In this document: positions 1 to 34,201 of the stretch, piece after piece
Layout of the letters: the number at the start of each line of letters is the position of its first letter
How positions within the stretch are numbered: the first letter of the stretch is position 1
IMG/VR virus record: IMGVR_UViG_3300047383_000085
Location: 1 to 34,201 of that record
Direction: 5' to 3' (one strand)
Source of the DNA: a virus
DNA length: 34,201 nt
Translations under genes and position numbers: made by a program
Notes under the pieces: model-generated
Told to the model about the DNA's origin: nothing
What the model saw: the letters and a program-made list of their open reading frames with translations, nothing else
Databases searched by the model: none

Positions 1-127
1 ACCATAAGAGAGGAAATGTTGAAATGAGCCGATTAGGAGAAGTTGAAAGAGTAAAGAGAACCTTAAAACTGTTTGATATGATCTTGAATAAACACATAGA
101 TTCTATCAATCCAGAGGACAACTCTTT
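1..127. repeat. Terminal overlap copy 1, identical to 34075..34201
   Basis: The window starts ACCATAAGAGAGGAAATGTTGAAATGAGCC. The same string restarts at 34075 and runs to the last base. It cuts through the 3' end of CDS 33373..34101 and the 5' part of ORF 24..224. Confidence 0.95.
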
Positions 128-252: not shown

Positions 253-714
253 ATGGATATAAGTAATTTTTTCGGCGATGTGGAAGTTGTCGAACAACAA
301 ACGGATATAAAAGCAGGAAGATATGATCTTGAGTATGTGAATACTAATGAAGAATTAAGATCGGGTCAGAATGGTTGGATGGGTATGCAACTTAACTTTA
401 GGATTGCGGGAACAGGATTACAAACAGGTTTTACTGTAACTGTTGCGCATGACAATCCTAAGTATGTTGGTTTTGGTATGAAAGAAATGGCAGGTCTTGC
501 AAAAGCAGCTGGCATTACTGGAACTTTAAAAGACACTAACGAGCTTAATGGTAAGACAGTTAGTTGTATGTTAAAGCTAAACGAAAACAATTACCCAGAG
601 ATCGACTCTAAGTTTGGTAGCAACTGGCAACCAGCAGAGGGTAAGAAGGTAGAGGCAAGTGCGCCGACACCTCCGAAAGTAGAAGACGATCTTGGCGACA
701 AGATCCCTTTTTAA
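253..714 (+). CDS. Single-stranded DNA-binding protein-like
   Basis: The C-terminal acidic tail ...EDDLGDKIPF resembles the bacterial SSB DDDIPF tip. An AAGGG RBS precedes the ATG. It sits between a Sak4-like ATPase and the primase-helicase, a typical recombination module. Confidence 0.6.
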   Translation: MDISNFFGDVEVVEQQTDIKAGRYDLEYVNTNEELRSGQNGWMGMQLNFRIAGTGLQTGFTVTVAHDNPKYVGFGMKEMAGLAKAAGITGTLKDTNELNGKTVSCMLKLNENNYPEIDSKFGSNWQPAEGKKVEASAPTPPKVEDDLGDKIPF

Positions 715-1078
715 TCCATTAATAAGTAAACCATCGCTGTGCGCTTTTTGTAAAGCGCCAGCGAAAGGGTTTGTATATGGTAAAGATGACACTTGGTTTG
801 GAGCTTGTAGCATGGATCACCTAGATAAAATAAAAAAAGGTGAACGACTCAAGAACATAGCGCAAATGAGCAACGAGGGCTTAGACTACGCTATTAAACA
901 AACCAAAGACACCTATCTTGAGATAGCAAAGAACACAGGTTCTTATGTGATGCACGAATGGGATAGAGAAAAAAGAGAACTGTTATTTGGTAAGGCTGTA
1001 AGAGAATATCTTAACTGGGCCAACCATCAAGCAGAAACAGGACAATTGGAGAGAACATTAAGAGATGGAACTGACTAA
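692..1078 (+). CDS. Hypothetical protein with a putative N-terminal zinc-binding motif (CAFC...CSMDH)
   Basis: The ORF is continuous from TTG at 692. The first in-frame ATG lies after the Cys motif, so the start is uncertain. The stop overlaps the primase start. Confidence 0.45.
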   Translation: MATRSLFNPLISKPSLCAFCKAPAKGFVYGKDDTWFGACSMDHLDKIKKGERLKNIAQMSNEGLDYAIKQTKDTYLEIAKNTGSYVMHEWDREKRELLFGKAVREYLNWANHQAETGQLERTLRDGTD

Positions 1079-2909
1079 ATGGTATGGAGAGAAAGGCTTA
1101 GTCATTGATGATAACTTTGCTTTTGCCAGTCAAGGCAACAGCACGGATGATTTAATACGCGAGATGAACAACCAAGGGTTGTTCGTCAATTCATTAGATT
1201 TAACAGGGCAGGTAACAAGAGTACCCGTACAATCTGCGCCTGGTGTTAGACCAGACAAAGGCAATGAGCGTAGCGGTTGGTATGTTATCAACGAGCTAGA
1301 CGGAAATTATTTTGCAACTTTTGGTAACTGGCGAACGGGTGAACAACACAAGTGGTCAAGCATTAACACCAATCAACTATCAAACATTGATAGAGTAGCG
1401 CTACAAAAAAGAATGGAGGAAGCTATTGAGCGGGCCGAAGTAGCGAAGAAAGTTAGGCATGATGAAGTAGCTAAAGAAGTAAAAGAAAGATATAAGAACT
1501 GTCAGCCCGTGATCTCGCATGAGTATCTAAATAGTAAAAATGTTAAAAGCTATGGATTGAAACAACTGAACGGAAGTTTAATTGTTCCTGTTATCTCAGC
1601 AGTAAGCGGAGAGGTGCGTAGTTTACAGTATATCGATAAGAAAGGACAGAAGCGTTTTGTGAGCGCGAGCGAAATTAAAGGTAATGTTTTTCTTATTGGG
1701 TGCGAGCCATCAACATTAGCCACACAAGAAAACTTAATCATTGTCGAAGGTTATTCAACCGCCGCGACAGTTTATGAGTCTACGAAGATACCGACAGTTT
1801 GCGTCTTTTCGGCGAACTTTACTATGGAGGCTGTTACTAATATTAGGAAGATATCTCAGGCAAGATTATATATAGCCCTAGATAACGATGAGAACGGCGT
1901 AGGAGAGAGGAAAGCTAACGAGGTAGCATCTGCTATTCCTAACTGTTTCGTGCGCGTGCCGAGCGCGAGAGGAGACTATAACGATTTAGCTAAAACTCAT
2001 GGATTAGATAGAGTTAGATTAGAAATATTGAATCAAGGTTTAGGTTTAACCAAACACCCAATTAGAAACCTAGTTAAAGAACCACCGCCTAAAACTTGGC
2101 TTGTAGAAAACCTATTGGAAAAATCAAAACCAGGCGTGCTTGCTGCGATTGGTGGGGTGGGTAAATCCATGATGGCATTAGACTTAGCCATTAAAGTATC
2201 GCAAGGCTCTGGAATGTGGTTTGATCATCCTATAGTTAGCGGTGGTAACGCAGTAGTATTGTCTGCCGAAGATGACTTGGTTGAAATCCACAGACGAATC
2301 AATGCTTTGGATAAAGGTAATAAAAGATTCGATGCACCTTATGATGTTTTTACTTATACAATTCCCGATCAACCAGAACCCTTGATTCTTATTAGAGATG
2401 ATTCAAAAGGTCTTAGAATGACTGAACAAGCTAAAGAGCTGTTAGCTGAATTAGAAACCATACCGAATTTAGAACTGGTTATTATTGATCCAATCCAAGC
2501 CATGAGTGGAGCGCCCATTAGTTCATCCAATGAAGCTGCTCAACTTTACTGTCAACTTTGCGCCTCTATCTCCTCGAGATTTGATTGTTGCGTGCTATCT
2601 ATTCATCATATGTCAAAGGCGGCTCTCCAAGCTGATGACGATCAGATGAATGTACGCCAAAAAATCAGAGGCGCAAGCTCATTAATCGATGGGACTAGGG
2701 TTGCAATAGCCTTGTGGTTAGCGAATGAGGAAGAAGCGGAGAGAATTTGTATTGATAATGGGGTGGATTATGAGCGCTTGCGCGTGGTGAAAGGCGCGGT
2801 GGTGAAAAGTAATTCATCCGAAGTCGATGTATCAATCAAGACATTGTTTAGGAAAGAGGCCGTGCTTGAGCCTTACAAAGAGAGCAGCTTTAATTTTGGA
2901 GATTTTTAA
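1065..2909 (+). CDS. Primase-helicase fusion (Toprim domain plus RepA/DnaB-like P-loop ATPase)
   Basis: Toprim-like IIVEGYSTAATV (Glu) and YIALDNDENG (DxD). Walker A GVLAAIGGVGKSMMALDLA, Walker B LVIIDPIQ and SIHHMSK, as in RepA-type (AAA_25-like) helicases. 614 aa. Confidence 0.85.
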   Translation: MELTKWYGEKGLVIDDNFAFASQGNSTDDLIREMNNQGLFVNSLDLTGQVTRVPVQSAPGVRPDKGNERSGWYVINELDGNYFATFGNWRTGEQHKWSSINTNQLSNIDRVALQKRMEEAIERAEVAKKVRHDEVAKEVKERYKNCQPVISHEYLNSKNVKSYGLKQLNGSLIVPVISAVSGEVRSLQYIDKKGQKRFVSASEIKGNVFLIGCEPSTLATQENLIIVEGYSTAATVYESTKIPTVCVFSANFTMEAVTNIRKISQARLYIALDNDENGVGERKANEVASAIPNCFVRVPSARGDYNDLAKTHGLDRVRLEILNQGLGLTKHPIRNLVKEPPPKTWLVENLLEKSKPGVLAAIGGVGKSMMALDLAIKVSQGSGMWFDHPIVSGGNAVVLSAEDDLVEIHRRINALDKGNKRFDAPYDVFTYTIPDQPEPLILIRDDSKGLRMTEQAKELLAELETIPNLELVIIDPIQAMSGAPISSSNEAAQLYCQLCASISSRFDCCVLSIHHMSKAALQADDDQMNVRQKIRGASSLIDGTRVAIALWLANEEEAERICIDNGVDYERLRVVKGAVVKSNSSEVDVSIKTLFRKEAVLEPYKESSFNFGDF

Positions 2910-3283: not shown

Positions 3284-3450
3284 AATGTTTTAACTGTAAT
3301 GCCAATATGAAGTTGGAAAGAGAGAAAGATATCAGTCGATACAATAATTTATTTAATCTTAAATTAAGTTTTAGCTGTCCTGAGTGTGGAGCGGTAGCCA
3401 ATGCCTATCCACCCAAAGATGATAACCAAAAGGTGAGTCATGGCGGGTAA
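3280..3450 (+). CDS. Small Cys4 zinc-ribbon protein (56 aa), paralogue of 2973..3146
   Basis: Hand translation: MKCFNCNANMK...FSCPECGAVANAYPPKDDN. It has the same MKC-x2-C ... SCP-x-CG ... Y-x-PK-x-D layout as 2973..3146. Confidence 0.55.
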   Translation: MKCFNCNANMKLEREKDISRYNNLFNLKLSFSCPECGAVANAYPPKDDNQKVSHGG

Positions 3451-3574
3451 AGGTGATAAACCAAGAGATTTAGTTTACAGCCAAGAATACAGAGATAATT
3501 TTGATAAAATCTTTGGTAAGAAGAAACCAAATAAGGAGCAAAAAAATGAGACTGATTCTAAGCGAAAAAGATAA
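3440..3574 (+). CDS. Hypothetical basic 44-aa protein
   Basis: Hand translation: MAGKGDKPRDLVYSQEYRDNFDKIFGKKKPNKEQ... The start overlaps the upstream stop. It overlaps the next ORF by 29 nt, so it is uncertain. Confidence 0.35.
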   Translation: MAGKGDKPRDLVYSQEYRDNFDKIFGKKKPNKEQKNETDSKRKR

Positions 3575-3725
3575 ACATATTATTGTTACTGTACTCGGTG
3601 ATTACGCCACCGAGATAGATCGACAGGCCACCAAATCAAAAGAAGATTTAGATACTTATAGAAGAATTAGAGAGATTATTCTGCAAGTGGCTTGCGGTAA
3701 TGACAATGAGGAGAAAGAAGAATGA
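3546..3725 (+). CDS. Hypothetical 59-aa protein
   Basis: The internal ATG at 3546 is preceded by AAGGAG (3533-3538). The tracked ORF start at 3501 is a TTG without an RBS. Confidence 0.5.
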   Translation: MRLILSEKDKHIIVTVLGDYATEIDRQATKSKEDLDTYRRIREIILQVACGNDNEEKEE

Positions 3726-3805
3726 ACCATGAAATGATGATGAAATTAGCCATGATTGGCTTGTTATGTTGCCTGGTGGTATTGGTTAGCTTGTAGCATA
3801 ACGCT

Positions 3806-3868
3806 ACAACGACTATAGCAAAGGACAGCAACGATAGCACTAAATCACAGCAACGACTGCACTAAATC
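3806..3868. repeat. Iteron-like direct repeats with 22-bp register
   Basis: ACAGCAACGATAGCACTAAATC (3825-3846) and ACAGCAACGACTGCACTAAATC (3847-3868) match at 20 of 22 positions. A degenerate third copy with the core CAACGACT lies 22 bp upstream (3807-3814). Confidence 0.6.
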
Positions 3869-3882
3869 GCGACAAATATCCG

Positions 3883-3938
3883 TATACGTATTATACGTAT
3901 ATAGAGAGACAAAAACCCTTGGCGGGTTTTGTGTCTCT
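3883..3938. promoter_or_regulatory. Twin ATACGTAT palindromes plus a long imperfect hairpin; candidate origin or operator elements
   Basis: ATACGTAT occurs at 3884-3891 and 3893-3900. A hairpin at about 3905-3938 pairs GAGAC-AAAAACCC with GGGTTTT-GTGTCTC. It lies in a 173-bp non-coding gap just upstream of the winged-helix gene. Confidence 0.45.
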
Positions 3939-3969
3939 AAAAACAGAATTAGATTATTAGGAGAAGACA

Positions 3970-4416
3970 TTGAGAGACAGCATTAAAAAAGAATATTGGT
4001 GGGTGAGCGCGGGCGAGGTGGAGAACGAAAGCGAATCACCATTCATCGCCATGAAATACAATTCAATCTTTAGAGATTATTCGAAATTGCGCAAACAAGT
4101 TTGGAACTGGTATCGCACGCACGCGGGGAGAGAAGATTTATCGCCAGTAGCTAAACTTTTACTTTGGAGCGTGTGCGAGCGGTATCGTTGGCAAACCTGG
4201 AGCAGCCACGATGCCATTAGTTATTATTGCAAGATGATAGGGGTGCATCGCACTAGCGCGAGTCGTGGTATGAGTGAGTTATTAGAGAAAGAAGTTCTTT
4301 GGTGTGTGCTAGAGGGTGAGCGCAAGCGGTTAAGGAAATCGCAAGCGGGGGGTAAGAAGCATTTTTTATTGGTTGGTTTAGGTGCGCACTTGCGCGAGGT
4401 GGGGCGCGATAGCTAA
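3970..4416 (+). CDS. Winged-helix / HTH DNA-binding protein, candidate replication initiator or regulator
   Basis: TTG start preceded by AGGAGA. The segment LSPVAKLLLWSVCERY...DAISYYCKMIGVHRTSASRGMSELLEKEVL looks like a wHTH. The gene is conspicuously GC-rich (35 of 60 G+C at 4381-4440). Confidence 0.65.
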   Translation: MRDSIKKEYWWVSAGEVENESESPFIAMKYNSIFRDYSKLRKQVWNWYRTHAGREDLSPVAKLLLWSVCERYRWQTWSSHDAISYYCKMIGVHRTSASRGMSELLEKEVLWCVLEGERKRLRKSQAGGKKHFLLVGLGAHLREVGRDS

Positions 4417-4453
4417 CTTGGGGAAGGAGAGTAAAGCTATCTTAGTGCGCCCC
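4401..4453. terminator. Large inverted repeat between convergent genes, a possible bidirectional terminator
   Basis: GGGGCGC GATAGCT (4401-4414) pairs with AGCTATC ...GCGCCCC (4435-4453). It spans the stop codon of 3970..4416. There is no clear U-tract. Confidence 0.4.
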
Positions 4454-4473
4454 GTTGATTGGTTATTAACTGG

Positions 4474-4659
4474 TTAAGCTATTATATCCCCGTTTTTAAA
4501 TATTTTTGCCATTTTTAGGCCTTGCGGTGAGATTAAAAGCCAGTTGCCCTCGGTGTCTTGGTGCGAGCGGGTGCGGGAGGGGTATTCAAGATCACCGCCT
4601 AGGCTGTAAGTTTCTTTCATATGGTTAATGTATTTATATTCCGCTATTTCGTATGACAT
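4474..4659 (-). CDS. Hypothetical 61-aa protein, last gene of the leftward operon
   Basis: The ORF abuts the upstream gene with a 1-nt spacer and is on the same strand as its neighbours. Confidence 0.55.
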   Translation of the reverse strand: MSYEIAEYKYINHMKETYSLGGDLEYPSRTRSHQDTEGNWLLISPQGLKMAKIFKNGDIIA

Positions 4660-4660
4660 A

Positions 4661-4870
4661 TTACTTTCCTATTTTATAATCAATGGTATTGCCACAATAT
4701 GAAGATAATTCTTCCATTGCTCCAAGCACACTGGCTGTCTGTGTTTGTTTAAACTCAATAGGCTTTTGAACTTCAAAACCATATTTATTGCAATCTTTCA
4801 TCATTGCTTTTTTATTGGTGTATACATAAACAAGATTATATTCATGGCATTGTGCTACATAAAATTTCAT
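4661..4870 (-). CDS. Hypothetical 69-aa protein
   Basis: ATG at 4870 (MKFYVAQ...) is preceded by GGGGGA. The tracked start at 4885 is a TTG. Confidence 0.55.
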   Translation of the reverse strand: MKFYVAQCHEYNLVYVYTNKKAMMKDCNKYGFEVQKPIEFKQTQTASVLGAMEELSSYCGNTIDYKIGK

Positions 4871-7362: not shown

Positions 7363-7815
7363 ATGGAACAAAAAACGCCTAAAAAGAGAGGAAGAAAGGC
7401 TTTAATTCTCACACAAGATCAAATTAATCAAATCGAGTATCTTTGTTCTTTAAACATGGGAATCATGGACGTCTGCCGAAGTTTGGGGATTAGTTGGAGT
7501 TCGTTCGATAAAAATCGAAAGAAAAAACAAGAAATAAATGACGCAATCGAGAGGGGAAAAGCTAAAGGATTGCAAAGAGCAACTTCTAAACTTATGGAAA
7601 AAATAGAGGATGGCGAATTTCAAGCGATCCAGTTCTATCTCAAATCAGCCGATCGCGAGCGCTGGGCAGAAAAAGCTGAAATTTCCCATACTTTAAATTT
7701 AAGCGAGATCATATCGAGCGCCAACGCGCGCATAATCGAACACAAAGGCGAAGCGCTAGCGCACGCGCCCGAAGAGATCGACATAAAACAATTAAACAAG
7801 GCCACGAAGTCATGA
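7363..7815 (+). CDS. terS: Terminase small subunit-like HTH protein
   Basis: N-terminal basic segment plus HTH (QINQIEYLCSLNMGIMDVCRSLGIS), then ...AIQFYLKSADRERWAEK, typical of small terminases. It lies upstream of TerL. Confidence 0.6.
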   Translation: MEQKTPKKRGRKALILTQDQINQIEYLCSLNMGIMDVCRSLGISWSSFDKNRKKKQEINDAIERGKAKGLQRATSKLMEKIEDGEFQAIQFYLKSADRERWAEKAEISHTLNLSEIISSANARIIEHKGEALAHAPEEIDIKQLNKATKS

Positions 7816-32175: not shown

Positions 32176-32204
32176 TTGCATATCATATAACTTTAGTGTA
32201 AATT
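32176..32204 (+). promoter_or_regulatory. Sigma70-like promoter candidate for the rightward replication module
   Basis: TTGCAT (32176-32181), a 17-nt spacer, then TAAATT (32199-32204). It lies in the divergent gap upstream of 32241. Confidence 0.4.
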
Positions 32205-32240: not shown

Positions 32241-32444
32241 ATGACAGACACCGATAGAGTCTTTATAGACACTAAGCAACTAGCTAAAAGGTGGGGCAAA
32301 AATCCACACGCGCTATCAAATTTAAGGCGCAAAGGCGGAGGCCCTAACTATTATAAGATTGGCGGTAAAATTCTTTATGATCTATCAGAGATCAAGCAAT
32401 TAGAAGAAAGCTCATACGTTTCCAATGGCTCACGCAATATTTAG
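32241..32444 (+). CDS. Excisionase/AlpA-type HTH DNA-binding protein
   Basis: FIDTKQLAKRWGKNPHALSNLRRKGGGPNYYKIGGKILYDLSEI is the MerR-superfamily Xis-like HTH pattern. AGGGAGTAT RBS. Confidence 0.65.
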   Translation: MTDTDRVFIDTKQLAKRWGKNPHALSNLRRKGGGPNYYKIGGKILYDLSEIKQLEESSYVSNGSRNI

Positions 32445-33373: not shown

Positions 33374-34101
33374 TGTCATTAGCTGCAATTCAAAAGAAAG
33401 GTAAAGTAAAACCACCAAGGCTTATATGTTATGGCCCAGGCGGTATTGGTAAAACATCATTTGCCGCAAGCATGGATAAATGTGTAATCGTACAATCTGA
33501 AGATGGTATCGGAAAGATTGAGTGCGATCACTTTCCAGTAGCCAAAAGTTATGAAGAGTTTATGAGCAATCTAACTTCTTTATTGACAGAAGATCACGAA
33601 TTTCGTGTTGCCTGTATTGATTCGTTAGACTGGCTAGAAACTTTGTTATGGGATCATGTCTGCAAAGAAAATGGTTGGGCGCAAATAGATACACCTGCAT
33701 ATGGTAAAGGCTATGTTGCAGCTCTTGATAAGTGGAAAGAGTATGTTGAGGTTCTTAACAGACTCAGGGATGAAAAATCTATGACTGTGATACAGATTGC
33801 ACACAATCAGATTCGCAGATATGAAGACCCATCTAATGATCCACATGATCGACATGAAATTAAACTACATCGTAAAGCTGCTGACTTATTGGTAGAACAT
33901 AGCGATGCAGTCTTTTTTGCCAACTACAAAGTTGGAACTGTACAAGTCAAAGGCAAGATGGGTATGACTACCAAGACTGTTGCTGGAGACAGAACTATTT
34001 TTACTGAGCAAGCACCTGGTTATATGGCCAAGAATAGATATGGCTTGCCTAGTGAGATGCCTTTTGAGTGGGCAACCATAAGAGAGGAAATGTTGAAATG
34101 A
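33373..34101 (+). CDS. Sak4-like RecA-fold ATPase (AAA_24 family-like)
   Basis: Walker A RLICYGPGGIGKTS, Walker B-like RVACIDSLD and TVIQIAHNQ. 242 aa, in the typical position between the exonuclease and SSB. Confidence 0.75.
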   Translation: MSLAAIQKKGKVKPPRLICYGPGGIGKTSFAASMDKCVIVQSEDGIGKIECDHFPVAKSYEEFMSNLTSLLTEDHEFRVACIDSLDWLETLLWDHVCKENGWAQIDTPAYGKGYVAALDKWKEYVEVLNRLRDEKSMTVIQIAHNQIRRYEDPSNDPHDRHEIKLHRKAADLLVEHSDAVFFANYKVGTVQVKGKMGMTTKTVAGDRTIFTEQAPGYMAKNRYGLPSEMPFEWATIREEMLK

Positions 34102-34201
34102 GCCGATTAGGAGAAGTTGAAAGAGTAAAGAGAACCTTAAAACTGTTTGATATGATCTTGAATAAACACATAGATTCTATCAATCCAGAGGACAACTCTT
34201 T
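34075..34201. repeat. Terminal overlap copy 2, identical to 1..127
   Basis: Direct comparison of the two window ends. The unique genome length is therefore 34,074 bp. Confidence 0.95.

What the first reader, a model, noticed from the sequence alone, without database searches (positions are those of the whole stretch)
3797..4416. Iteron-like 22-bp repeats, twin palindromes and a hairpin upstream of a GC-rich winged-helix gene: candidate replication origin and initiator
The 173-bp gap at 3797-3969 holds two tandem 22-nt repeats (3825-3846 and 3847-3868, 20 of 22 identical). A degenerate third copy shares the core CAACGACT exactly 22 bp upstream, giving a two-helical-turn register like plasmid iterons.

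Next come two copies of the palindrome ATACGTAT, 9 bp apart (3884-3900), and a long imperfect hairpin at about 3905-3938.

Immediately downstream is a 148-aa winged-helix-type protein whose gene is much more GC-rich than its surroundings (35 of 60 G+C at 4381-4440). The primase-helicase lies just upstream. This looks like an iteron/Rep-type origin module in a phage that has no polymerase of its own.
Basis: partly seen in the sequence, partly recalled or inferred. Interest (0 to 1): 0.62.

Follow-up and report, generated by a model that had tools for sequence, protein, structure and literature searches.

The report
Probable phage replication origin and initiator
A non-coding block of phased 22-bp repeats, an invariant ATATCC word, an AT-rich palindrome and a hairpin lies before a small DNA-binding gene in a whole group of uncultured marine phages, and is most likely their replication origin with its matching initiator, a familiar kind of element built from a previously unannotated protein family.

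Summary
The 22-bp repeats occur nowhere else in the 34-kb genome.

The layout recurs in more than 15 sequence-distinct lineages of related viral contigs (protein 41-96% identical):
- 3-5 direct repeats in 21-22-bp register, with lineage-specific sequence
- (C)ATATATCC, in register as the last unit
- a 16-27-bp AT-rich segment, usually a perfect palindrome
- a 13-15-bp hairpin with compensatory changes
- the about 145-aa winged-helix gene

Repeat type tracks the protein's recognition helix. It does not track the primase-helicase (96% identical enzymes sit beside unrelated repeats) or the small terminase.

The primase-helicase is a Toprim primase fused to an RSF1010 RepA-type helicase and has no origin-binding tail. 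The phage has no polymerase, RNA polymerase or integrase. The block holds no sigma-70 promoter, canonical terminator or DnaA box.

Best reading (about 0.6): an iteron origin with its cognate initiator, IncQ-like in logic. The protein is not a detectable member of the Rep_3, lambda O or RepC families.

Earlier notes of this scan describe repeat-plus-hairpin arrays next to primase-helicase genes in other phages. Here the DNA-binding part is a separate gene.

The parts
1065..2909 (+). Primase-helicase gene (614 aa): a Toprim primase fused to an RSF1010 RepA-type helicase, with no C-terminal DNA-binding tail.
   Evidence: Pfam Toprim_3 6.5e-10 and AAA_25 1.7e-36. The C-terminal half aligns to RepA 1g8y residues 14-240 of 279 at E 9.6e-12 and ends where RepA ends.
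3803..3824 (+). Iteron 1 (degenerate): GCTACAACGACTATAGCAAAGG.
   Evidence: Lies in 22-bp register. 13 of 22 identical to iteron 3, and its core CAACGACT (3807-3814) is identical to that of iteron 3.
3825..3846 (+). Iteron 2: ACAGCAACGATAGCACTAAATC.
3847..3868 (+). Iteron 3: ACAGCAACGACTGCACTAAATC.
   Evidence: 20 of 22 identical to iteron 2, and unique in the genome.
3869..3890 (+). Last unit in register: iteron head GCGACAA followed by the near-invariant word ATATCC (3876-3881).
   Evidence: In register in 13 of 16 lineages. ATATCC is invariant in alignments A2 and A3.
3883..3901 (.). AT-rich palindrome (hairpin 1): TATACGTAT-T-ATACGTATA.
   Evidence: Relatives carry 16 distinct, perfectly complementary stems at this position, each beating shuffles. 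It is replaced by an A-rich tract in one lineage. It falls in the least stable 3% of 25-bp windows in the genome.
3905..3938 (.). Hairpin 2: 14 pairs with one bulge. The 5' arm is purine-rich (AGAGACAAAAACCC) and the 3' arm is GGGTTTTGTGTCTCT.
   Evidence: Fold z-score -3.1. The stem covaries across lineages. Both strands fold about equally well. Several lineages have no U-tract after the stem.
3959..3963 (+). Shine-Dalgarno sequence AGGAG, 6 nt before the TTG start codon.
   Evidence: Read directly. The start position agrees with the ATG starts of relatives.
3970..4416 (+). Gene for the 148-aa winged-helix protein, the candidate initiator.
   Evidence: 49 homologues, in a family of about 50 clusters at 50% identity, mostly fragments, with no full-length member above about 180 aa. 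HTH_36 matches 24 of 26 members. The AF2 model has a winged-helix core with pLDDT 83-90. Present downstream of the primase-helicase gene in every related locus with enough sequence.
4401..4453 (.). Long hairpin spanning the stop codon, at the point where the rightward and leftward operons converge. Probably the operon terminator.
   Evidence: (I15).

Best explanation
The block at 3803-3938 is the phage's replication origin, and the gene at 3970-4416 encodes its origin-binding initiator.

**Proposed steps (all inferred unless marked)**
1. Monomers of the winged-helix protein bind the heads of the three to four 22-bp repeats. These lie on one face of the helix, two turns apart. The last unit abuts the word ATATCC.
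2. The resulting nucleoprotein array destabilises the adjacent AT-rich segment (the palindrome 3883-3901).
3. The phage's RepA-type hexameric helicase has no DNA-recognition domain of its own (shown). It is recruited and loaded there.
4. In the exposed single strand, ATATCC together with the hairpin or hairpins gives the fused Toprim primase a defined entry point.
5. Host DNA polymerase III extends the primer, because the phage has no polymerase (shown).
6. By occupying the repeats just upstream of its own gene, the protein may also limit its own read-through expression.

**Shown here**
- The anatomy and its conservation.
- Covariation of both stems.
- Co-variation of repeat type with the protein's recognition helix, and independence from the primase-helicase and the small terminase.
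- The helicase type.
- The absence of promoter, terminator and DnaA-box signals.

**Inferred**
- DNA binding, DNA melting, helicase loading, priming, and origin activity itself.
For: 1. **Conserved anatomy.** The anatomy is present at the stated coordinates and is non-random. The same order of parts recurs in more than 15 sequence-distinct lineages, including one on a binned MAG contig. The 21-22-bp register is significant in 13 of 16 lineages.
2. **Repeats follow the recognition helix.** At least 12 repeat types exist.
   - Each repeat type comes with its own recognition-helix N-terminus.
   - Similar helices go with similar repeat cores: NRK[ST][VS]G with GGGACA in four lineages, RRSVGRA with GTGGCGTAGAGT in two.
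3. **Natural swaps.**
   - L160 and L162 have primase-helicases that are 96% identical (24 scattered differences in 597), but winged-helix proteins only 64% identical and unrelated repeats.
   - L157 and L162 have less similar enzymes (92%) but the same repeat type and the same helix.
   - L034 and L037 have enzymes 79% identical, an identical winged-helix protein and the same repeats.
4. **Not tied to the small terminase.** It is mosaic (37-43% against 87-100% identity) among phages that share one repeat type.
5. **A core gene.** The winged-helix gene follows the primase-helicase gene in every related locus that has about 2.2 kb or more of downstream sequence. In several lineages the block sits directly between the two genes.
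6. **The helicase cannot find an origin alone.** It is homologous to RSF1010 RepA (E 1e-11) and ends where RepA ends. In RSF1010 that helicase depends on the iteron-binding protein RepC, and priming uses hairpin signals with a 6-nt recognition word 5' of the hairpin (PMC8567376).
7. **Gene content.** The genome encodes no DNA polymerase, RNA polymerase or integrase.
8. **No rival signals in the block.**
   - The block holds no sigma-70 promoter in 23 of 27 lineages.
   - It holds no canonical terminator, no Rfam family and no DnaA box.
   - The gene is therefore read through both hairpins, and the operon terminator-like hairpin comes after the gene.
9. **A single docking locus.** The repeats occur at one place only in the genome, so this is not a regulon.
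10. **Same order as lambda ori.** The order repeats, then AT-rich segment, then palindrome matches annotated lambda ori.
11. **Sequence affinities of the protein.** HTH_36 matches 24 of 26 members, best E 2e-5. That domain is reported in plasmid Rep proteins (PMC3832669). The only annotated PHROG hits are 'replication initiation protein' families.
Against: - There is no direct evidence of initiation. Read mapping was unavailable, and GC skew simply follows gene orientation.
- Similarity to known initiators is weak.
  - HTH_36 scores 15.2 bits against a cut-off of 25.
  - phrog_270 also matches all 14 control genomes, so it is an unspecific model.
  - hhalign against lambda O finds nothing.
  - Foldseek's best hits are MarR/SlyA-type transcription regulators, though not significant at E 0.07-0.5.
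- The repeats and the gene are adjacent, so they would travel together in recombination whatever their function.
- Helix-to-repeat covariation is confounded by phylogeny.
- The AT-rich segment is short and only in the least stable 3% of the genome, not the extreme.
- One lineage lacks the palindrome, another lacks ATATCC, and one has a 72-aa ORF between the block and the gene.
- The operon starts with another small DNA-binding protein, an HTH_17 gene at 32241-32444, whose targets are unknown.
Confidence: 0.6

Rival explanations
1. The block is a transcriptional control region only. The winged-helix protein is a MarR-like regulator that binds the repeats as an operator or roadblock, to set its own level or the early-to-late switch. 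The two hairpins act in the mRNA as an attenuator, a processing site or a stabiliser. The origin lies elsewhere.
For: - The Foldseek top hits are MarR/SlyA regulators.
- HTH_36 is also described as common in transcription regulators (PMC3832669).
- The block lies inside a transcribed operon directly upstream of the gene.
- The 5' arm of hairpin 2 carries an AGGAG-like purine run.
Against: - No sigma-70 promoter is available to regulate in 23 of 27 lineages, although clear ones exist at the expected operon starts.
- Hairpin 2 lacks a U-tract in several lineages.
- Stem changes are almost always double, with hardly any G-U intermediates, and neither strand is consistently favoured. That fits DNA-level pairing better than an RNA structure.
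- Three to five same-face direct repeats at 22-bp spacing next to an AT-rich tract are the hallmark of origins rather than operators (established knowledge of iteron replicons).
- The repeats occur nowhere else in the genome.
- The phage would otherwise lack any origin-recognition function for a RepA-type helicase.
Confidence: 0.2
2. The block is the origin, but the repeats are read by another factor, such as the N-terminal part of the primase-helicase, the conserved 128-aa zinc-motif protein at 692-1078, the HTH_17 protein, or a host protein. The winged-helix protein is an accessory or copy-control factor.
For: - In the distantly related Idiomarinaceae phage 1N2-2, a repeat-rich gap with a 13-bp-arm palindrome follows the primase gene and no winged-helix gene comes after it.
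- Earlier notes of this scan describe repeat arrays read by primase-helicase tails in other phages (unchecked).
- ATATATCC stays invariant across cassettes, so something conserved must read that part.
Against: - Near-identical primase-helicases (96%) sit next to unrelated repeats.
- The enzyme has no C-terminal tail beyond the RepA core.
- Repeat type matches the winged-helix recognition helix in all lineages examined.
- The winged-helix gene is universal and almost always directly adjacent.
Confidence: 0.1
3. The block is a packaging (pac), partition or recombination (attP-like) site.
For: - Direct repeats combined with inverted repeats also occur in pac, cos, parS and attP sites.
- In some lineages the block lies only about 1.2-1.7 kb from the small-terminase gene.
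Against: - Repeat type does not change when the small terminase is swapped.
- There is no integrase and no ParA- or ParM-type gene.
- The palindrome spacer of 1-5 nt is too short for a tyrosine-recombinase core (established knowledge).
- The 127-bp terminal repeat of the record lies inside a gene. It looks like an assembler overlap rather than a physical end.
Confidence: 0.05

Closest known systems
IncQ plasmid RSF1010/R1162 oriV with RepC (initiator), RepA (helicase) and RepB' (primase)
   Same: - The phage helicase domain is a true homologue of RepA (1g8y, E 1e-11).
- Both use a separate small origin-binding protein.
- Both have three to four iterons at about 22-bp spacing (for RSF1010, from my own knowledge: 3.5 x 20 bp with 2-bp spacers).
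- Both have hairpin elements beside the iterons. In ssiA the primase reads six single-stranded bases 5' of a hairpin (PMC8567376), which resembles ATATCC followed by hairpin 1.
- Neither encodes its own polymerase.
   Different: - The primase here is a Toprim (DnaG-like) domain fused to the helicase, not RepB'.
- The winged-helix protein gives no RepC (PF06504) hit.
- The hairpins are adjacent on one side, not an inverted ssiA/ssiB pair on opposite strands.
- The replicon is a lytic-looking 34-kb podovirus, not a plasmid.
Phage lambda ori with the O protein
   Same: - Same order of parts: four phased iterons, then an A/T-rich stretch, then a palindrome.
- The initiator binds through an N-terminal winged helix (my own knowledge).
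- Replication depends on the host polymerase.
   Different: - Lambda ori lies inside the O gene.
- O recruits host DnaB through P.
- hhalign of the family against O finds nothing (probability 0.1%).
- TIGR01610 is hit by 1 of 26 members at E 0.032.
Iteron plasmids of the Rep_3 family (pPS10, R6K, F, pSC101)
   Same: - Contiguous 22-bp iterons lie directly upstream of the rep gene.
- A head-plus-inverted-head copy of the iteron lies next to the direct array (here for example TGCGACAA-T-TTGTCGCA in L023 and GATGC-AAAGC-GCATC in L018). In those plasmids such a copy serves autorepression (plasmid details from my own knowledge).
   Different: - Rep_3 proteins have two winged-helix domains and are about 250-350 aa. 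This protein has one and is about 145 aa.
- There is no PF01051 hit.
- No DnaA box is present.
- The AT-rich segment lies between the iterons and the gene rather than on the far side.
Satellite phage P4 alpha protein with ori/crr, and SaPI Rep/Pri-Rep with their ori
   Same: - Repeats lie immediately 3' of a primase-helicase gene, as they do in several lineages here.
- Repeat specificity varies by lineage.
   Different: - Those enzymes carry their own origin-binding domain.
- This one ends with the RepA core, and repeat type is independent of it.
- Here the DNA-binding function appears to be a separate gene placed after the repeats.

Membership tests
Iteron-type replication origin (functional class) | Three or more direct repeats of 17-23 bp in helical register. 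| tested here: met
   The window has 3 repeats plus 1 terminal unit at 22 bp. Relatives have 3-5 units at 21-22 bp, significant in 13 of 16 lineages.
Iteron-type replication origin (functional class) | An adjacent AT-rich, easily melted segment. | tested here: met
   3883-3901 is in the least stable 3% of 25-bp windows. The segment is 100% A+T over 22 bp in the L006 lineage and is an A-rich tract in the L129 lineage. It is short compared with classical unwinding elements.
Iteron-type replication origin (functional class) | Repeat sequence matched to a cognate initiator encoded next to it. | tested here: met
   Repeat type follows the recognition helix. It is independent of primase-helicase and small-terminase similarity. 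This is correlative evidence, and physical linkage is a caveat.
Iteron-type replication origin (functional class) | Initiator binding, DNA melting and replication initiation at the site. | not testable with these tools
GC skew is uninformative.
Rep_3 initiators (RepA/RepE/pi, PF01051) | A sequence match to the family profile. | tested here: not met
   No hit at E <= 0.1 for the window protein or for any of the 26 family members.
Lambda O-type initiators (TIGR01610 phage_O_Nterm) | A sequence or profile match to the O N-terminal domain. | tested here: not met
   1 of 26 members hits at E 0.032. hhalign against lambda O gives probability 0.1%.
IncQ replication system | A RepA-type hexameric helicase. 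| tested here: met
   AAA_25 at 1.7e-36. RSF1010 RepA 1g8y at E 9.6e-12, aligned over residues 14-240 of 279.
IncQ replication system | A RepC-family initiator (PF06504) and a RepB'-type primase. | tested here: not met
   No RepC hit. The primase is of the Toprim_3 type.
HTH_36 (PF13730) winged-helix domain | A score above Pfam's gathering threshold. | tested here: inconclusive
   The window protein scores 15.2 bits against a cut-off of 25. 24 of 26 members match at E <= 0.1, best 2.3e-5.
Self-loading primase-helicases with an origin-binding tail (P4 alpha, SaPI Rep) | A sequence-specific DNA-binding domain within the enzyme. | tested here: not met
   The C-terminus ends with the RepA core. 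Enzymes 96% identical are paired with unrelated repeats. The N-terminal 64 residues were not analysed.
Intrinsic (rho-independent) terminator, for hairpin 2 | A GC-rich stem followed by a U-tract. | tested here: not met
   The scan did not call it. There is no U-tract after the stem in the window or in the L036, L046, L052 and L130 lineages. The gene downstream has no promoter of its own.
Sigma-70 promoter/operator | -35 and -10 hexamers at 16-18 bp spacing inside the block. | tested here: not met
   None in the window. None in 23 of 27 lineages, and only weak 9-of-12 matches in the other four.
MarR-family transcription regulators | Significant fold or sequence similarity. | tested here: inconclusive
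   Foldseek top hits have E 0.07-0.5 and TM about 0.35. The PDB profile search gives SlyA at E 0.32. This shows a generic winged-helix likeness only.

The most novel reading that the evidence does not exclude
This lytic marine podovirus group would replicate by an IncQ-like, DnaA-independent route in which a split system does the work:
- An interchangeable small winged-helix 'specificity' protein reads cassette-specific iterons.
- The invariant word ATATCC, together with the structure-conserved hairpin or hairpins, forms a single-strand initiation (ssi-like) signal read by the conserved Toprim-RepA enzyme.

That would make it the first such structured priming signal for a DnaG-type phage primase fused to a RepA helicase. 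It would also supply a natural library of 12 or more initiator-iteron specificities exchanged as cassettes.
Probability: 0.2. Interest if true: 0.65.

Novelty: new variant of a known kind. Interest (0 to 1): 0.5.

Why it matters
If correct, this defines the origin and initiator of a widespread, uncultured group of marine phages, with about 290 related primase-helicase loci in IMG/VR.

- It assigns a function to an unannotated protein family.
- It shows a three-function replication set (initiator, RepA helicase, primase) like that of broad-host-range IncQ plasmids working in a lytic phage.
- The dozen or more natural pairs of recognition helix and 22-bp repeat, including swaps beside near-identical helicases, form a ready-made data set for learning how a single winged helix reads DNA.
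- The origin cassette could serve as a replicon part for marine bacteria.

It does not overturn any principle. Iteron origins are textbook.

Tried and rejected
**Leads that gave nothing**
- Close cultured relatives: none for the locus DNA or for the protein in 50,697 phage records. The nearest primase-helicase hits are below 31% identical.
- Rfam: no family in 3300-4800.
- DnaA box: none with up to 1 mismatch in the block. ATATCC(G/A)TA matches TTATCCACA at only 6-7 of 9 positions.
- ATATCC...TATAG as a recurring phage promoter: only one other match in the genome, which is chance level. The spacing also varies from 16 to about 30 nt between lineages.
- GC skew as an origin marker: its turning points coincide with the inverted gene block, so it is uninformative.
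- MAFFT alignment for stem counting: the register of hairpin 1 differs between lineages, so per-lineage stem finding and shuffles were used as well.
- PriHel-based search for lineages with a different cassette and no winged-helix gene: none found.

**Readings rejected**
- T7-like promoter (TATAGGAG resembles TATAGGGAGA): rejected because the genome has no phage RNA polymerase.
- attP or excisionase: rejected because there is no integrase (same calls).
- Physical genome end: the record's 127-bp terminal repeat lies inside a gene and equals a common assembler k-mer size.

**Weak or non-specific**
- PDB sequence search with the family profile: only E 0.18-0.32 noise.
- Foldseek against PDB and BFVD: generic winged-helix hits, none significant.
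- phrog_270 as a specific marker: the model matches all 14 control genomes, so its weak hits carry little weight.
Full report
**1. Context**

The window is a complete, circularly assembled IMG/VR virus record of 34,201 bp. Its 127-bp terminal repeat lies inside a gene and looks like an assembler overlap.

Gene content:
- A rightward replication and recombination operon starts at a sigma-70-like promoter near 32,180. It runs across the record ends in this order:
  - HTH_17 protein (32241-32444)
  - DUF2800/PD-(D/E)XK exonuclease
  - Sak4-like AAA_24 protein
  - SSB-like protein (253-714)
  - a 128-aa Cys/His protein (692-1078)
  - primase-helicase (1065-2909)
  - six to seven small ORFs
  - the non-coding block (3797-3969)
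  - the 148-aa gene (3970-4416)
- A long hairpin follows at 4401-4453.
- It meets a leftward operon of small proteins (7197 to 4474).
- Next come the small and large terminase genes and the structural genes.
- No DNA polymerase, RNA polymerase or integrase was found.
- No cultured relative carries the locus or the protein.

**2.

- The two 22-mers are 20 of 22 identical.
- A third, degenerate unit lies 22 bp upstream, and a fourth unit in register (3869-3890) starts with the repeat head and continues into ATATCC.
- The 22-mers are unique in the genome, with 0 matches in 100 shuffles.
- The two ATACGTAT words are the arms of one palindrome (3883-3901).
- The hairpin at 3905-3938 has 14 pairs and a bulge. 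The whole gap folds with z = -3.1 as DNA.
- The gene has GC3 of 0.53, against 0.18-0.53 for the other genes tabulated, where only one 73-aa leftward ORF equals it and a 24-aa ORF exceeds it.

**3. It is a conserved composite element**

The protein has 49 homologues in the large protein database. It belongs to a narrow family of about 50 clusters at 50% identity, mostly fragments, with no full-length member above about 180 aa.

I examined these sets:
- Fifty viral loci found through the protein.
- Eighty more found through the primase-helicase.
- One contig binned into a Crocinitomicaceae MAG.

In all of them the same order of parts precedes the gene:
- 3-5 direct repeats
- (C)ATATATCC
- an AT-rich 16-27-bp segment
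- a hairpin with a 13-15-bp stem

Repeats:
- The repeats differ completely between lineages, giving at least 12 types.
- They keep a 21-22-bp register, significant against shuffles in 13 of 16 lineages.
- The unit that carries ATATCC is the last unit in register.
- In several lineages one unit is a repeat head plus its inverted copy, for example TGCGACAA-T-TTGTCGCA.

AT-rich segment:
- It is a perfect palindrome in 16 sequence-distinct forms.
- Each form beats composition-matched shuffles.
- Close relatives differ only by compensatory pairs: ATAACAT/ATGTTAT, ATACCAT/ATGGTAT and ATAGCAT/ATGCTAT.

Hairpin 2 covaries in the same way:
- On an unfitted MAFFT alignment, 7 of 14 pairs show double changes.
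- The covariation score is 0.226 against 0.083 in shuffles (0 of 500 reach it) and at most 0.124 in slid controls.
- Double changes vastly outnumber G-U intermediates, and neither strand folds consistently better. I read this as selection on DNA-level dyad symmetry or hairpin formation rather than on an RNA structure (inference).

Exceptions:
- One lineage (the L129 type) has an A-rich tract instead of the palindrome.
- One (L127) has CATAATAC instead of ATATCC.
- One (L113-L118) has a 72-aa acidic ORF between the block and the gene.

**4. Which protein reads the repeats?**

Helix-to-repeat correspondence:
- Each repeat type comes with its own N-terminal half of the recognition helix. Examples are HRTSASRG, SRRTAGRG, HRKTCGRA, NRKTSGRA, NRKSVG(K/R)A, NRKTCGRA, NRRTVGRC and (N/E)RRSVGRA.
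- Similar helices go with similar repeat cores.
- This alone is confounded by common descent.

Natural mosaics help separate the candidates:
- L160 and L162 carry primase-helicases that differ at 24 scattered positions of 597 (96% identical). Their winged-helix proteins are only 64% identical and their repeats are unrelated.
- L157 and L162 have less similar enzymes (92%) but share repeat type and helix.
- L034 and L037 have 79% identical enzymes, an identical winged-helix protein and the same repeats.
- The small terminase is likewise swapped (37-43% against 87-100% identity) among phages with the same repeats.

The repeats therefore track the winged-helix gene and not the other two candidates. 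The caveat is that adjacent DNA is co-inherited anyway.

The primase-helicase cannot supply sequence recognition through a tail. Its C-terminal half aligns to RSF1010 RepA (1g8y, E 9.6e-12) and stops where RepA stops.

The winged-helix gene is present downstream of the primase-helicase gene in every related locus with enough sequence. In several lineages only the block separates the two genes.

ATATATCC stays constant across cassettes, so a conserved partner probably reads it. That partner could be the enzyme, conserved parts of the winged-helix protein, or the host (inference).

**5. What the block is not**

- Sigma-70 promoter: none is found in the window or in 23 of 27 lineages, while convincing ones stand at the operon starts.
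- Canonical terminator: several lineages have no U-tract, the downstream gene has no promoter of its own, and the operon's terminator-like hairpin comes after the gene.
- Known RNA family: none matches.
- DnaA-box cluster: none is present.
- Regulon operator: the block is a single locus in the genome.
- attP or a partition site: there is no integrase or ParA.
- Tied to the small terminase: it is not.

**6. What the protein is**

- AlphaFold2 gives a confident winged-helix core (pLDDT 83-90 for residues about 41-70 and 81-110). It has a disordered N-terminus and flanking helices.
- Foldseek hits are generic winged-helix proteins, MarR/SlyA in the PDB and 'helix-turn-helix domain protein' in BFVD. 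None is significant.
- HTH_36 is matched by 24 of 26 members, best 2.3e-5, but below the gathering score for the window protein.
- That domain occurs in plasmid Rep proteins and in replication-region proteins of Stx phages. It is also described as common in regulators.
- The only annotated PHROG hits are four 'replication initiation protein' families, best 1.3e-4. One of these models matches all 14 control genomes, so I give this little weight.
- Rep_3, RepC and lambda O membership were tested and not met.

**7. Mechanism proposed**

The architecture matches iteron origins:
- Same-face direct repeats are bound by a cognate winged-helix initiator.
- An adjacent AT-rich segment is opened.
- A helicase that needs to be recruited is loaded there.

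The order repeats, then AT-rich, then palindrome is that of annotated lambda ori.

The protein set matches the IncQ logic of separate initiator, RepA helicase and primase. In IncQ plasmids RepC opens oriV for RepA, and the primase recognises six bases 5' of a hairpin (PMC8567376). By analogy, ATATCC plus hairpin 1 may be a priming signal. This last point is speculative, since one lineage lacks hairpin 1.

Likelihoods:
- Origin plus cognate initiator: about 0.6.
- Operator-only role: about 0.2.
- Origin read by another factor: about 0.1.
- pac or another site: about 0.05.

**8. Relation to earlier notes of this scan**

Notes on other genomes (Dhillonvirus coliphages and others) describe repeat-plus-hairpin arrays just after primase-helicase genes. 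They attribute recognition to a DNA-binding tail of that enzyme (unchecked AI notes).

The present case is the same kind of element on different DNA. It differs in that the enzyme has no such tail and a separate, exchangeable gene follows the repeats.

Notes on this genome agree on the leftward operon, the converging hairpin and the zinc-ribbon ORFs.

**9. Verdict**

- It is a new variant of a known kind. It works like an iteron/Rep origin and shares its helicase with IncQ plasmids, but its initiator is not a detectable member of any known initiator family.
- Interest is moderate (0.5).

Noticed in passing
window 32241-32444 (+): A 67-aa ORF below the usual length cut-off is the first gene of the replication operon. 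It matches HTH_17 (AlpA/excisionase-type DNA-binding domain) at E 2.7e-5, just under the Pfam cut-off. A good sigma-70-like promoter (TTGCAT-17-TAAATT) lies about 55 nt upstream.
   Followed up: partly
window 3722-3796 (+): A 24-aa hydrophobic ORF (MNHEMMMKLAMIGLLCCLVVLVSL) overlaps the previous stop codon (ATGA). It is kept in the close relatives, and its last codons (…AGCTTGTAG CATAAC) already resemble the tail of the repeat unit, so the repeat array may begin inside it.
   Followed up: partly
window 4001-4416, and spacers in L020, L021, L041 and L050: The winged-helix gene carries GC-rich direct repeats (4001-4015/4314-4328, 4249-4262/4385-4398, 4013-4035/4394-4416) and has a GC3 of 0.53. 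In distant lineages the spacer between hairpin 2 and the start codon is filled with GC-rich GCAAGCG/GCGTGCG-type repeats. In the L113-L118 lineage similar sequence encodes the acidic tail of a 72-aa ORF. Unexplained.
   Followed up: partly
L054:5700-5925 (Idiomarinaceae phage 1N2-2, NC_025439 34203-34467): The 265-bp gap right after the primase gene of this cultured, distantly related phage holds about ten GGTACA(C) words in both orientations and a perfect 13-bp-arm palindrome (GGTACACACACCTATATAGGTGTGTACC). It is a likely origin, with no winged-helix gene after it.
   Followed up: no
L002, L005 against the window (TerS at window 7363-7815): The small terminase is mosaic. It is 37-43% identical in contigs whose replication genes are 93-97% identical to the window, while the large terminase start stays 100% identical.
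   Followed up: no
window 1-127 and 34075-34201: The 'direct terminal repeat' of the record is exactly 127 bp and lies inside a small gene. This is most likely an assembler k-mer overlap of a circular or permuted assembly, not a physical terminal repeat.
   Followed up: yes
L052 (NZID01000003.1, 9-kb contig of a Crocinitomicaceae MAG): The only hit in 185,579 species genomes is a short contig binned into a Bacteroidota MAG, and it carries the full block. It is probably a phage contig binned by co-abundance. It is a weak host hint at best, because these phage genes use strong AGGAG ribosome-binding sites.
   Followed up: partly
window 692-1078 (+): A 128-aa protein with a CxxC...C...H motif sits between the SSB-like and primase-helicase genes. 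It is conserved in all lineages (41-98% identical) and matches no family. It is a candidate helicase loader or accessory replication factor.
   Followed up: no
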